Assembly: GCF_041886205.1 (NCBI RefSeq)
Contig: NZ_CP169029.1
From: Escherichia coli
Lineage (GTDB): Bacteria > Pseudomonadota > Gammaproteobacteria > Enterobacterales > Enterobacteriaceae
Direction: 5' to 3' (one strand)
DNA: 64,000 nucleotides
Shown here piece by piece: positions 19,818 through 22,800 of the stretch (its first letter is position 1; every line of letters begins with the position of its first letter). A program made the position numbers.

Positions 19818-22800
19818 TAAGTTCACTAAAAAACAGAACGGGGCCAAAGGGTCCCGTTTTTTTTCGCCATCATTTCGGAAAAGTGTCCAGAAGGGGCAAG
19901 GGGACTCGGGGAGTATAATTTCGCCATTCAGAAAGAATGGAAAGAATAATGCAAAACAGAAAATGGATTTTGACCTCGCTGGTAATGACTTTTTTCGGCA
20001 TCCCCATACTGACGCAATTTTTGGCAGCGGTTGTTGCTATGCTGGGGGGCGGGCTTGCCGCTATTCTTGAGGTTTGCAATTTACTCTTTACGCCAGCAAT
20101 TTATCTTCTACTCAACGTCTTTATGCTGACTCTGGGGGCGATAATAATATTTTTCTCTGGTCGCGTGTGGGCGGGCGATAGTGCACCAGAAAAAAAAGAA
20201 ATAGCCGTCTGGCGACAATGTCTTTTTTTAGTACCTGCTTTATTCACCCTGGTTGGCTGGATAATCACGCTACATCTGGCAGATTATCAATTTCGCCAGA
20301 TGGGAGACGGTTGGTTGGCAAACCTTATGCTTCCCTGGTTGGGCATTTTTTTAGTCTCATTAGTGGGTGGTGAGTACTGGTGGATAGTCATTATACCCGT
20401 TGGCGCGCATATCAGTTTTTCGCTGGGGTACGGTTGGCCGACCAGACATCTTTTAACGGGCACGTCCGGGTTACGTTGCCGTAATTCCCTCTTGTTTATC
20501 CTTCTCATGCTTGGTTTTGTCGCCGGTTACCAGGCTTATTTATATAAACAGCTTAATCCCGGCGTCGGTGTCCGCGAAAATATTGATACCTGGGCCTGGC
20601 GACCCGATAAACTCAATAATCAACTGACACCATTACGTGGTAAACCGCAAATTCAGTTTACGCAAAACTGGCCGCGACTCGATGGTGCTACGGCGGCGTA
20701 CCCAATTTATGCCTCTGCCTTTTATGCGTTGAGCGTTATACCGGAAGATTTTCACACCAGGGAATATCTGGAGAACTCTCATACCCCCGATGCATATAAC
20801 AGGATTGTTAAAGGTGATGCCGATATTATTTTTGTGGCGCAACCCTCCGGTAGGCAGAAAAAACGCGCTGAGGAATCGGGCGTCACTTTGCTATACACGC
20901 CATTTGCCCGTGAAGCATTCGTTTTCATCGTCAATGCGGATAATCCGGTTAATTCCCTGACTGAACAACAGGTGCGTGACATCTTCAGTGGTGCAATTAC
21001 CAACTGGCGTACTGTTGGCGGTAACGATCAGGAGATCCAGACCTGGCAACGCCCGGAAGACTCTGGCAGCCAGACGGTGATGCAATCACAGGTCATGAAA
21101 AATGTCCGCATGATCTCGCCGCAGGAAACAGAAGTGGCAAGTATGATGGAGGGAATGATTAAAGTCGTTGCCGAATACCATAATACAAAGAACTCAATTG
21201 GCTACACCTTCCGCTATTACGCCACGCAAATGAACGCTGACAAGAATATCAAATTGTTAGCGATTAACGGTATTGCACCCACTGCGGAAAATATCCGTAA
21301 CGGCAAATATCCGTATATCGTCGAGGCATTTATGGTAACGCGGGAAAATATGACCTCAGAAACACAAAAATTGGTGGAGTGGTTTTTAACGCCGCAGGGG
21401 CAGAGCCTGGTGGAAGATGTAGGTTATGTGCCGATGTATAAGACGCTACCTTAAGCAGGATAATCATATGGATACCGGTATTATTCACCTGAACGCGGCG
21501 AATGTTCGTTTTGTTTATCAACCATTTACACGCGACCAGCGGAAGAGGGGGTAATTATGCAACCCAGCCCCGCCATGCAGGCATTAATTGAGCAGATTTA
21601 TTATATTTTTCGTCGTTATCCTGTGCCATCGAGATTTCATGTTTGTTGTCCTTACTGTTTTAGCGAAGAACAACAACAAGCCTTAAGAGGGGTTTCACTG
21701 CGTGCCATACCTTTTCCTTTATTACATGCCTGGGGAACAAGTATTGGCCCTAACCCACAAAATGATGATGAGATTCGCTATTTATTACCCAGATTGTTTG
21801 AATTAATTGCCCAAAGGCAATTTCCAGGCATTTATGAAGGCTGCTGTTTACAGAGAATAGCAGAGGCAGATAACCAGAACTGGCGAAGGGATGAACTACA
21901 AATAATTAGCGATTTCGCCTATTTATATATGCAGGATTGGGTGTCGGCTAAGGAAGTCGTGGAACTGGAAATAATATTAGAAATGTTTTATCGCGGTGGT
22001 ATAAAGATTGAACCCTTACTTGACTCTATTATGTCCATTTCCGGTTACTGGCCGACGGCGTCTATGGCATGTTTGCTCTGGCGTAACAGTAAAGAATACG
22101 TCGAAAATAGCGATTTTGAGCAGAGTGATGATAATAAAACTATTACCACCCAAATCAATACTTGGGCTAGAAACAATCATCCTTTGCTGAAAGAAAGAGC
22201 GCGGCAAGCGATTGAGAACCCACTAAAACAGCCCGAACCAATGACAGAATATCAAGTCTGGGAAGACGACTGGATGATTGATGAGTGTTTATGCGCGATG
22301 TATGACGCATCACCTGAACAATCAGGACAATAAAGATGAAGAAAATCAGACTTTATATTTATCCGCTATATCTCGGCTTTGTTATTGTGCCGTTGTTGGT
22401 ATGGCCGACGGTGGTTGCGCTGGTTGTTGTTGGTATCACACTGAGTTTTCTGATGGAGATGCTGTTCTCAAATTCGTTCATGCACAGGCGTATTTCCCTT
22501 CTGGAATTACAACTTGGGTTATTGGCTGAATATACGCTTTTGTTCTGCGCCATATGTTACGTTGGTTGGCAATTTGCTTCCAGAACTCAATCTGAATTGA
22601 AAAGCAGACTGCATTGTTGGTTGGTATTTGCACCAGTTTATTTCTGGTTGTTCCTGTGGGATATCATTTTCTATGTCGCGCCAGCGAAAATTACATTGCT
22701 GGAAAATATGCGCAGTTTCTTTCTGACCGTTGTCTGGCTCCCACTGAATTTTTCGCCATTTTGGCCTCAGCCGTGGACTGACTTTATCGGTCCGATAAGT

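What the first reader, a model, noticed from the sequence alone, without database searches (positions are those of the whole stretch)
19937..21454. Orphan PstS-like binding domain fused to a polytopic membrane domain
Seen in sequence: the N-terminal ~200 residues contain about six hydrophobic helices. The C-terminal ~300 residues resemble phosphate-binding PstS-type periplasmic binding proteins (stretches such as LDGATAAYPIYASAFYAL, DSGSQTVMQSQV, GYTFRYYA). Inference: a membrane-tethered ligand sensor rather than a transporter component, since no cognate permease or ATPase genes are present. K-12 is reported to carry only a fragment (yzgL) here, which implies strain-variable function.
Basis: partly seen in the sequence, partly recalled or inferred. 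Interest (0 to 1): 0.45.

Follow-up and report, generated by a model that had tools for sequence, protein, structure and literature searches.

The report
Membrane-embedded orphan PstS-like binding protein
This is an intact E. coli gene, of which K-12 keeps only the fragment yzgL, for a phosphate-binding-type "flytrap" domain held on the periplasmic face of the inner membrane by its own six-helix membrane module; it belongs to a widespread, uncharacterised group that is never encoded next to a transporter, so its real job is unknown.

Summary
ORF 19937..21454 (+) encodes about 501-505 aa. The N-terminal part is modelled as six membrane helices (residues 2-206). The C-terminal part is a PBP_like_2 / short-type PstS domain (Pfam E 1.6e-29; Foldseek 4gd5 E 5e-15).

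Charge bias across 73 homologs puts the binding domain outside the cytoplasm. Short paralogs of the domain carry a lipoprotein signal, which agrees.

The gene is under purifying selection (dN/dS 0.13; binding domain 0.06). Its binding-domain part is present in 62% of complete E. coli genomes.

K-12 yzgL is a ~2.7-kb microhomology deletion that joins ORF1 codon ~77 to the tail of the third island gene. That third gene is itself a stand-alone paralog of the membrane domain.

Six of the nine phosphate ligands of the closest solved homolog are kept. Three Ser positions, including the selectivity position, are Ala.

The membrane domain matches no Pfam family and no solved fold. It occurs almost only fused to this binding-domain clade. 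The clade has at least 573 loci across many phyla, always with 3-6 helices and never beside ABC permease or ATPase genes.

"Orphan, membrane-tethered, not a cis-transporter component" is supported. "Sensor" is plausible but not shown.

The parts
19836..19865 (+). glgP intrinsic terminator (GC hairpin followed by a T run) that separates glgP from ORF1
   Evidence: Read directly in the sequence. The simple terminator scan did not list it.
19914..19919 (+). Perfect -10 hexamer TATAAT upstream of ORF1. The -35 is poor, and there is no Pho-box-like site in 19821-19950.
   Evidence: Sequence read. The Pho-box scan found no site with 5 or fewer mismatches out of 14.
19937..21454 (+). ORF1: membrane-domain + PstS-like protein, the intact form of yzgL. 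Alternative starts are 19946 (PGAP, ATA) and 19949 (ATG, most likely).
19937..20554 (+). N-terminal six-helix membrane domain (residues 1-206). It has no Pfam family and no solved-fold match. Invariant or nearly invariant residues among 30 proteobacterial homologs are P23, G75, R93, W108, P133, W148, F161 and Q199.
20432..20485 (+). Cytoplasmic loop L5 (residues 166-183), strongly positive. It sets the in-to-out orientation of the last helix (residues 184-203).
   Evidence: Net charge +3.9 over 42 homologs and +3.6, positive in 99%, over 73 cross-phylum homologs.
20555..20644 (+). Juxtamembrane linker (residues 207-236) with the conserved motif Y/W-x-P-F/D at 220-223
   Evidence: Cross-phylum alignment.
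20645..21451 (+). Periplasmic short-type PstS-like (PBP_like_2) flytrap domain, residues 237-505
20684..20695 (+). Pocket motif G250-A-T252-A253, equivalent to E. coli PstS G-A-T10-F11 and to S11-T12-S13 of 4q8r
   Evidence: alignment, ligand list from PMC5381212, invariance in the family.
20837..20848 (+). A301-Q-P-S304. A301 sits at the selectivity position (Asp56 in E. coli PstS, Ser59 in 4q8r).
   Evidence: A301, P303 and S304 are conserved in at least 90% of sequences.
21050..21070 (+). R372-P-E-D-S376-G377-S378, equivalent to PstS R135-A-D137-G-S139-G140-T141. This anion-binding loop is invariant.
20167..22879 (+). Segment missing in K-12-type strains. The yzgL lesion joins ORF1 codon ~77 out of frame to the last ~18 codons of ORF3, at the microhomology GAGT(G).
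   Evidence: Alignments A1 and A2 and the breakpoint script.
21481..21556 (+). Remnant (last ~75 bp) of a 236-aa gene that follows ORF1 in most E. coli and in Klebsiella. About 650 bp are deleted in this window.
   Evidence: blastn against L002; gene maps.
21557..22333 (+). ORF2: a 258-aa acidic, soluble protein with no detectable family and an invariant C30-x3-C34. It co-occurs with ORF1 in Escherichia and in some relatives that are ~50% identical.
   Evidence: dN/dS 0.14.
22336..22935 (+). ORF3: a 199-aa membrane protein, a stand-alone paralog of ORF1's membrane domain, found only in Escherichia
   Evidence: hhalign probability 97.6%, E 4e-12, 164 columns. An ORF3-family member (P0126) was recovered by the membrane-domain HMM at E 2.6e-7. 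dN/dS 0.26. Distribution.

Best explanation
ORF1 is a functional, stand-alone envelope protein.

Shown:
- A six-helix inner-membrane module of a previously unassigned family carries, on the periplasmic side, a short-type PstS (Venus-flytrap) domain.
- The arginine and Ser-Gly-Ser anion-binding loop and the Thr ligands of that domain are intact. The three extra Ser ligands and the selectivity position of canonical PstS proteins are Ala.
- The protein belongs to a cross-phylum clade of PstS-like proteins that are always embedded by 3-6 helices and never encoded with ABC permease or ATPase genes.

Inferred mechanism: the flytrap captures a phosphate-type oxyanion at the outer face of the inner membrane. 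The ligand is either inorganic phosphate bound with reduced selectivity, or a phosphoryl-bearing compound that uses the space freed by the three Ala residues. The open/closed state of the flytrap is then read out through the protein's own membrane helices by membrane partners. In other words, it acts as a tethered receptor or co-sensor rather than handing substrate to a transporter encoded in cis. ORF3, a free copy of the membrane module, and the lipoprotein paralogs, free copies of the flytrap, suggest that the two modules are functional partners.
For: Domain identity.

Pocket: A251/T252/A253/T283/A301/R372/S376/G377/S378 against the nine ligands of 4q8r and the eight ligands of E. coli PstS. 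All are invariant or at least 90% conserved.

Topology. Lipobox paralogs.

Selection: dN/dS 0.127 overall, 0.218 for the membrane part, 0.059 for the binding domain.

Dedicated membrane module: 153 representatives among 1.84 billion proteins, and all 10 sampled hits of 427-743 aa carry PBP_like_2 C-terminal to it. ORF3 paralogy.

Orphan status: no ABC ATPase motif in the window; no permease or ATPase beside the gene in E. coli, Klebsiella, Salmonella, Budviciaceae, Burkholderiales or other contexts; 61 immediate same-strand neighbours in 80 loci hit 81 unrelated Pfam families.

Signalling hints:
- A 5TMR_LYT histidine kinase overlaps the gene start by 4 bp in Paenibacillus L040 and L079. In L072 the overlapping upstream ORF is only a 116-aa kinase-cluster fragment.
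- A CHASE4-GGDEF gene lies downstream in Psychrobacillus L046; L059 carries a homolog of it, assigned by clustering only.
- A LytTR gene lies upstream in L017.

Precedent: binding proteins that serve as co-sensors, such as XylFII-LytS and PstS-CtpL (review PMC8050422).
Against: - No ligand was tested.
- The membrane domain has only short cytoplasmic loops and no output domain.
- Most loci, including E. coli, have no signalling neighbour.
- Across phyla the membrane part is conserved only in hydrophobic character, not in sequence. That fits an anchor as well as a transducer.
- The strong cross-phylum conservation of the flytrap could equally reflect docking on the conserved PstCA permease.
- The parity of six helices conflicts with the positive N-tail and loop 77-93, so the full topology is unresolved.
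Confidence: 0.4

Rival explanations
1. It is an alternate, membrane-tethered binding protein that feeds the unlinked PstCAB phosphate transporter. The membrane helices are only an anchor that keeps it at the inner membrane.
For: - The closest sequence and structure relatives are genuine PstS proteins with bound phosphate.
- Six of the nine ligands are kept.
- The flytrap is highly conserved across phyla while the membrane part is not, as expected if it docks on a conserved permease.
- Multiple PstS paralogs that share one transporter are known in cyanobacteria and mycobacteria (established knowledge).
- Gram-positive binding proteins need a membrane anchor anyway.
Against: - The score is well below the TIGR02136 cut-off (122.6 against 206.6).
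- The selectivity position is Ala.
- There is no Pho box upstream.
- The gene is never linked to pstCAB in about 90 loci.
- A polytopic module of 3-6 helices with its own conserved residues and a free-standing paralog (ORF3) is far more than an anchor needs.
- The lipoprotein paralogs have Ser or Val at position +2, which by the Lol sorting rule implies outer-membrane sorting, out of reach of an inner-membrane permease (inference).
Confidence: 0.25
2. It binds the phosphoryl head group of an envelope lipid or polymer (for example undecaprenyl phosphate, a phospholipid, or lipid A / teichoic acid phosphate). The membrane helices accommodate or flip the lipid part.
For: - The pocket has lost three side chains around one phosphate oxygen (A251, A253, A301). 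That could admit a substituent (inference).
- The flytrap is held directly at the membrane surface by a short conserved linker.
- The family is found in both Gram-positive and Gram-negative phyla.
- Island neighbours are often envelope lipoproteins.
Against: All fold matches are below significance. No lipid-metabolism gene is consistently adjacent. No direct evidence exists for any ligand.
Confidence: 0.12
3. It is a self-contained, binding-protein-dependent secondary transporter or channel. The fused flytrap delivers the anion to its own membrane module, probably as an oligomer.
For: - The membrane module and this flytrap clade are fused almost exclusively to each other, a Rosetta-stone type of link.
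- The gene stands alone in all phyla.
- Fused binding-domain/permease importers and the TRAP and TTT systems show that binding proteins can serve non-canonical permeases (established knowledge).
Against: - There is no similarity to any transporter fold.
- Few conserved polar or charged residues lie within the helices.
- The Bacillales versions have only three helices.
- The membrane sequence is not conserved across phyla.
Confidence: 0.1
4. It is a periplasmic immunity or defence protein of a polymorphic-toxin or accessory island.
For: - The glgP-glpD slot is a low-GC mosaic island.
- Tandem paralogs occur in E. coli TA054.
- In Salmonella, lipoprotein paralogs sit in an array of small orphan genes together with Ntox34 and Peptidase_M91 fragments and a HEAT_2 protein.
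Against: - Purifying selection on the domain is strong (dN/dS 0.059).
- The small-ligand pocket is invariant.
- The gene occurs singly across many phyla with no toxin neighbour.
- There are no PADLOC hits.
Confidence: 0.05

Closest known systems
Short-type PstS phosphate-binding proteins (TIGR02136 / PF12849), e.g. C. perfringens PBP-1 (4q8r/4gd5), Synechocystis Sll0540 (9l8j), V. cholerae 1twy
   Same: Same two-lobe flytrap fold (Foldseek E 5e-15, TM-score 0.78 normalised to the target). Same hinge and C-lobe motifs (NPV..LT..Q..I..G.I.NW..VGG). Same Arg and Ser-Gly-Ser/Thr anion loop and the same Thr ligands.
   Different: - About 20% identity, and a score below the NCBIfam cut-off.
- Three Ser ligands, including the selectivity position, are replaced by Ala.
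- Family-specific invariants EAFVF, QRP, GYxFRYY.
- An N-terminal six-helix membrane domain instead of a signal peptide or lipobox.
- No pstCAB linkage and no Pho box.
E. coli PstS (1a54; PstSCAB 9k3x)
   Same: GAT-x-P-x-Y motif at the first ligand loop. R-x-(D/E)-x-S-G-(T/S) loop; hhalign E 3.9e-6; Foldseek E 3e-9.
   Different: It is the long-type PstS. Asp56, which forms the low-barrier hydrogen bond, aligns with Ala301 here. It is soluble, periplasmic, Pho-regulated and encoded in an operon with its transporter.
Binding-protein co-sensors of membrane signalling proteins (XylFII-LytS, TorT-TorS, LuxP-LuxQ, PstS-CtpL)
   Same: A binding protein used without delivering substrate to a transporter. 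In at least two Paenibacillus loci the homolog is translationally coupled to a 5TMR_LYT histidine kinase.
   Different: Those co-sensors are soluble or lipid-anchored and are genetically paired with their receptor. Here the flytrap carries its own polytopic module, and in E. coli no receptor gene is adjacent.
ABC importers with the binding domain fused to the permease (OpuA/OpuABC, GlnPQ)
   Same: A binding domain covalently joined to a polytopic membrane domain.
   Different: There is no BPD_transp_1 permease domain, no ATPase partner, and the membrane domain is N-terminal with an unassigned fold.
K-12 yzgL (b3427)
   Same: Its 5' ~220 bp are the first ~74-77 codons of this gene. The promoter region and the glgP terminator are the same.
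   Different: yzgL is a deletion remnant. It lacks helices 3-6, the whole binding domain, ORF2 and most of ORF3.

Membership tests
PstS family phosphate-binding protein (PF12849 / TIGR02136) | PBP_like_2 two-lobe fold detectable by profile and by structure | tested here: met
   Pfam E 1.6e-29. PDB profile E 7e-26. Foldseek 4gd5 E 4.9e-15, TM-score 0.78 normalised to the target.
PstS family phosphate-binding protein (PF12849 / TIGR02136) | Score above the curated NCBIfam subfamily cut-off | tested here: not met
   TIGR02136 scores 122.6 bits against a cut-off of 206.6. The match covers residues 284-500 only.
PstS family phosphate-binding protein (PF12849 / TIGR02136) | Full set of phosphate-coordinating residues | tested here: inconclusive
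   Against 4q8r: S11/T12/S13/S41/S59/R125/S129/G130/T131 align with A251/T252/A253/T283/A301/R372/S376/G377/S378. Six of nine are kept. Against E. coli PstS, seven of eight are kept and Asp56 aligns with Ala (the first ligand loop T10/F11 was mapped by motif inspection, not by that alignment).
PstS family phosphate-binding protein (PF12849 / TIGR02136) | Encoded with, or serving, pstC/pstA/pstB | tested here: not met
   There is no ABC ATPase motif in the 64-kb window. No permease or ATPase lies next to homologs in about 90 loci. Use of an unlinked PstCAB cannot be tested with these tools.
PstS family phosphate-binding protein (PF12849 / TIGR02136) | Pho-regulon control (Pho box) | tested here: not met
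   No Pho-box-like site with 5 or fewer mismatches out of 14 in 19821-19950. This is sequence evidence only.
PstS family phosphate-binding protein (PF12849 / TIGR02136) | High-affinity binding of orthophosphate | not testable with these tools
   Needs ITC, MST or a crystal structure of residues ~237-505.
Binding-domain/permease fused ABC importer | Membrane domain is a BPD_transp_1-type permease with an EAA loop and a cognate ATPase | tested here: not met
   No Pfam hit on residues 1-215 in 30 homologs. No fold match. No ATPase.
Binding-protein co-sensor of a signalling receptor | Genetic or physical coupling to a sensor kinase, cyclase or chemoreceptor | tested here: inconclusive
   Not met in E. 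coli, Klebsiella or Salmonella. Met in Paenibacillus L040 and L079, where a histidine kinase overlaps the gene start by 4 bp (L072 has only a 116-aa kinase-cluster fragment), and in Psychrobacillus L046 with a GGDEF gene (L059 by clustering only).
Polymorphic-toxin immunity protein | Immediately follows a toxin domain; evolves rapidly or under diversifying selection | tested here: not met
   There is no toxin upstream; glgP is the upstream gene. dN/dS is 0.059 for the domain. The gene is conserved as a single copy across phyla.
   The loop before the last helix has net charge +3.6 and is positive in 99% of 73 homologs; the segment after it is -2.2. The three-helix Bacillales forms with a positive N-tail give N-in/C-out. 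Paralogs carry a lipobox. This is a prediction, not an experiment.

The most novel reading that the evidence does not exclude
The family is a previously unrecognised class of single-polypeptide membrane device found across many bacterial phyla. A PstS-type flytrap is permanently coupled to its own small helical membrane module, and the pair works without any ABC transporter. It could be a ligand-gated receptor or channel, or a handler of phosphoryl-lipids. The free membrane module (ORF3) and the free lipoprotein flytraps would then be split versions of the same two-part machine.
Probability: 0.2. Interest if true: 0.75.

Novelty: new variant of a known kind. Interest (0 to 1): 0.45.

Why it matters
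PstS-type proteins are textbook ABC-transporter components. This clade breaks that pattern: it has at least 573 loci in the species-representative genome set, always with 3-6 helices and never a transporter gene beside it. It would therefore reveal a second way that bacteria use phosphate-type flytraps at the membrane.

The gene is present in about 62% of complete E. coli genomes, including O157:H7 and O103:H2, and in Salmonella and Klebsiella. It is deleted in K-12, so it has escaped the standard genetics. It is also mislabelled by automatic annotation as a 'phosphate ABC transporter substrate-binding protein'. The altered selectivity position makes the ligand itself an open question that can be tested.

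Tried and rejected
1. Immunity or defence protein. I considered this because of the Salmonella orphan-gene array with toxin fragments and the tandem paralogs in E. coli TA054. I rejected it as the main reading because of strong purifying selection, an invariant ligand pocket, single-gene occurrence across phyla and no PADLOC hit.

3. An ORF3-PBP fusion (P0207). It is read-through in another reading frame, not a real fusion.

4. Pairwise BLAST of ORF3 against the ORF1 N-terminus was not significant (E 2.3). Only profile methods showed the relationship.

5. ORF2. There were no Pfam, NCBIfam, PHROG, PADLOC or PDB-sequence hits, even with a 16-member profile.

6. A Pho box upstream: none.

7. Literature. 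'yzgL' returned only gene-list mentions, such as a -2.0-fold entry in a CpxR regulon table. Searches combining PstS with immunity/T6SS or with orphan/membrane-anchored terms, and a search for PBP_like_2, found no description of this architecture.

8. The afdb50 fold library was not available.

9. PstS-PstCA docking residues could not be extracted for a conservation test.
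Full report
**Observation**

The window carries the E. coli glgA-glgP | island | glpD region. GC content falls from about 0.52-0.57 in the flanks to 0.41-0.45 over 21250-22750.

RefSeq annotates an identical locus (strain wlxctx60) as 'PstS family phosphate ABC transporter substrate-binding protein', followed by two hypothetical proteins. PGAP starts the gene at ATA 19946. Orthologs in other genera begin MKNxKW, and a GGAA lies 7 nt before ATG 19949, so 19949 is the most likely start. Upstream lie the glgP terminator (19836-19865) and a perfect TATAAT (19914-19919). 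I found no Pho-box-like site.

**C-terminal domain**

- Pfam PBP_like_2 matches residues 250-485 at E 1.6e-29.
- TIGR02136 scores 122.6 bits, below its 206.6 cut-off.
- A 42-sequence family profile hits phosphate-bound C. perfringens PstS (4q8r/4gd5) at E ~1e-25 over residues 245-490.
- An AF2 model (pLDDT 87.4, pTM 0.74) matches 4gd5, 9l8j, 1twy and 4exl at E 5e-15 to 4e-13. It matches E. coli PstS at 3e-9.

The 4q8r paper lists nine phosphate ligands: S11, T12, S13, S41, S59, R125, S129, G130 and T131 (PMC5381212). In the alignment these correspond to A251, T252, A253, T283, A301, R372, S376, G377 and S378.

An hhalign comparison with E. coli PstS gives T283=S38, A301=D56 and R372-P-E-D-S-G-S = R135-A-D137-G-S139-G140-T141.

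So the C-lobe anion loop and the Thr ligands are intact and invariant. All three positions that supply the extra or selectivity hydrogen bonds are Ala. Glu326, which is invariant, aligns with the Asp of the 'A-Y/S-D' motif of short PstS proteins. From this I infer an oxyanion pocket of phosphate type with altered selectivity, possibly with room for a substituent. No ligand was tested.

**N-terminal domain and topology**

AF2 gives six helices: 2-46, 53-81, 87-114, 124-144, 149-169 and 177-206. The result is the same for the full protein and for residues 1-215 alone, where pLDDT is 90.9 and pTM 0.88.

Over 42 homologs the net charges are:

| Region | Net charge |
|---|---|
| N-tail | +1.6 |
| Loop 77-93 | +1.9 |
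| Loop 166-183 | +3.9 |

The other loops are slightly negative.

Over 73 cross-phylum homologs the loop before the last helix is +3.6 and positive in 99%. The segment after it is -2.2. The Bacillales forms have three hydrophobic segments in 45 of 47 sequences, and the examples printed start with positively charged N-tails. Short Salmonella and Escherichia paralogs of the binding domain carry lipoboxes such as LISGC, LMSGC and MTAGC.

The exact number of full membrane spans (5, 6 or 7) remains open, because six spans conflict with a positive N-tail and a positive loop 77-93.

**What the membrane domain is**

- It matches no Pfam family in any of 30 homologs.
- Foldseek gives no E of 0.001 or better.
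- An exhaustive HMMER search of 1.84 billion representatives with the domain profile finds only 153 proteins. All 10 sampled hits of 427-743 aa carry PBP_like_2 downstream of it.
- ORF3 (22336..22935, 199 aa, Escherichia only) is a stand-alone paralog of this domain. hhalign gives probability 97.6% and E 4e-12 over 164 columns, and an ORF3-family member is recovered by the HMM at E 2.6e-7.

**Selection and distribution in E. coli**

Against the common allele (O111:H8), ORF1 has dN/dS 0.127: 0.218 for the membrane part and 0.059 for the binding domain. Its dS is 0.27, against 0.12 for glgP and 0.16 for glpD.

The binding-domain part is present in 3342 of 5426 complete genomes. The window's allele is rare, with 11 genomes at 95% identity or more.

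Most carriers have four genes: ORF1, a 236-aa gene, a 255-aa gene similar to ORF2, and a 201-aa gene similar to ORF3. In the window the 236-aa gene is deleted, and its last ~75 bp remain at 21481-21556. ORF2 and ORF3 are constrained (dN/dS 0.14 and 0.26) but deeply divergent from the O111 alleles (dS 1.8 and 0.9). The island is therefore mosaic.

**The K-12 lesion**

In a K-12-type genome, homology to ORF1 stops after ~221 nt, at ...GGGCGAGT. It resumes in the last ~55 nt of ORF3, at GGGGAACGTGCC..., out of frame. The two ends share the microhomology GAGT(G). The missing segment corresponds to window ~20167-22879.

**Context and wider family**

Orthologs sit in the same glgP|glpD slot in Klebsiella oxytoca and next to glpD in Salmonella, with different small downstream genes such as YbbD_head. 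In Budviciaceae and Burkholderiales the gene lies elsewhere, after ruvB in two genomes. E. coli TA054 has a membrane-fused copy plus two shorter PBP_like_2 copies in tandem.

A scan of one genome per species used the family motifs [WFY]QRPx[DGN]SGSQ and [AS][IL]GY[TS]FRYY. It found at least 573 loci. The best 80 span Enterobacterales, Pasteurella, Burkholderiales, Bacillales, Clostridia, Synergistetes, Actinobacteria, Planctomycetes, Treponema and Prevotella. Most of the full-length products fall into two classes: ~380-410 aa with typically 3-4 hydrophobic segments (range 2-4), or ~480-540 aa with typically 5-6 (range 4-6).

Across phyla the flytrap is highly conserved, but the membrane part is conserved only in hydrophobic character.

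There is no conserved neighbour. The 61 immediate same-strand neighbours hit 81 unrelated Pfam families, and no ABC permease or ATPase family appears among the families shown. Generic ABC ATPases do occur at variable distance in 20 of the 80 loci, within 1 kb in only 3 cases.

Lineage-specific signalling neighbours exist:
- A 5TMR_LYT histidine kinase overlaps the gene start by 4 bp in Paenibacillus L040 and L079. In L072 the overlapping upstream ORF is only a 116-aa fragment of the kinase cluster.
- CHASE4-GGDEF lies downstream in Psychrobacillus L046. L059 carries a homolog of it in the same position, assigned by clustering only.
- phoPQ lies downstream in Rahnella, identified by reading the sequences, not by Pfam.
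- LytTR lies upstream in one MAG.

**Interpretation**

Shown:
- The gene is intact and constrained.
- It encodes a polytopic membrane module plus an extracytoplasmic PstS-type flytrap.
- It belongs to a large clade that is consistently orphan.

Inferred: the protein captures a phosphate-type oxyanion at the membrane surface and acts through its own helices with membrane partners, as a receptor or co-sensor (confidence 0.4).

| Rival explanation | Confidence |
|---|---|
| Tethered alternate binding protein for the unlinked PstCAB | 0.25 |
| Binder or handler of a phosphoryl lipid or envelope polymer | 0.12 |
| Self-contained binding-protein-dependent transporter | 0.10 |
| Immunity or defence protein | 0.05 |

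Everything in it holds except the specific 'sensor' claim, which remains plausible but unproven.

**Novelty**

The domain-level identity is already in RefSeq annotation, and yzgL is a named pseudogene. I found no description in the searchable literature of the dedicated membrane module, its free paralog ORF3, the altered pocket, or the cross-phylum transporter-less architecture. I rate it a new variant of a known kind, with interest 0.45.

Noticed in passing
window 22336-22935 (ORF3): The third island gene is a free-standing paralog of ORF1's membrane domain: same helix order and a shared motif IPVGxQxxFxLGYYW.R. It has no binding domain and is restricted to Escherichia.
   Followed up: yes
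window 21455-21556: The spacer between ORF1 and ORF2 contains the last ~75 bp of a 236-aa gene that follows ORF1 in most E. coli, in TA054 and in Klebsiella. About 650 bp have been deleted in this strain.
   Followed up: partly
window 21557-22333 (ORF2): A 258-aa acidic protein with an invariant C30-x3-C34 and an LPRL-E motif. It has no hit in Pfam, NCBIfam, PHROGs, PADLOC or PDB sequences. It is constrained (dN/dS 0.14), yet dS is 1.8 against the common E. coli allele, which means very old or imported alleles. Its stop lies 2 bp before the ORF3 start.
   Followed up: partly
window 22950-23110: Sequences that look like REP palindromic units lie between the ORF3 stop and the glpD 3' end. They are shared with K-12-type genomes, which carry one extra ~20-bp unit.
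   Followed up: no
L012/L013 (E. coli TA054, glgP-glpD slot): The same slot holds a 516-aa membrane-fused copy plus two shorter PBP_like_2 copies in tandem: 307 aa (248 aa as called in L013) and 326 aa (N-terminal hydrophobic segment, no lipobox Cys). Two paralogous secreted repeat proteins (141 and 142 aa) sit near the ends of the slot, and a small lipoprotein gene (120 aa) lies within it. The slot is a hypervariable envelope-protein island.
   Followed up: partly
L014/L015 (Salmonella, yegS-yegQ region): Two lipoprotein paralogs of the binding domain lie in a co-directional array of about 15 small orphan genes. The array includes an Ntox34 fragment, a weak Peptidase_M91 fragment, a HEAT_2 protein and a CesT-like chaperone, which resembles an orphan toxin/immunity or effector island.
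   Followed up: partly
L040, L072, L079 (Paenibacillus); L046, L059 (Psychrobacillus): In L040 and L079 the homolog's start overlaps by 4 bp the stop of a histidine kinase; Pfam on the L040 kinase gave a 5TMR_LYT membrane sensor domain. In L072 only a 116-aa ORF of the same cluster overlaps the start. In L046 a CHASE4-GGDEF cyclase follows; L059 has a homolog of it in the same position, assigned by clustering only.
   Followed up: partly
window 19937-19951: The start codon is ambiguous.
   Followed up: yes
Literature: PMC2639726, PMC2731931: STM3527 is listed among genes co-regulated with SPI-2 virulence regulators; I recalled it as the gene next to Salmonella glpD and did not verify the mapping. 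K-12 yzgL appears at -2.0-fold in a CpxR regulon table. Both hint at envelope or virulence-linked regulation of this slot.
   Followed up: no
L009, L016 (Burkholderiales): In two betaproteobacterial genomes the homolog lies just downstream of ruvB. In L009 it overlaps the ruvB stop. In L016 it overlaps a 260-aa gene that follows ruvB. This is probably lineage synteny.
   Followed up: no
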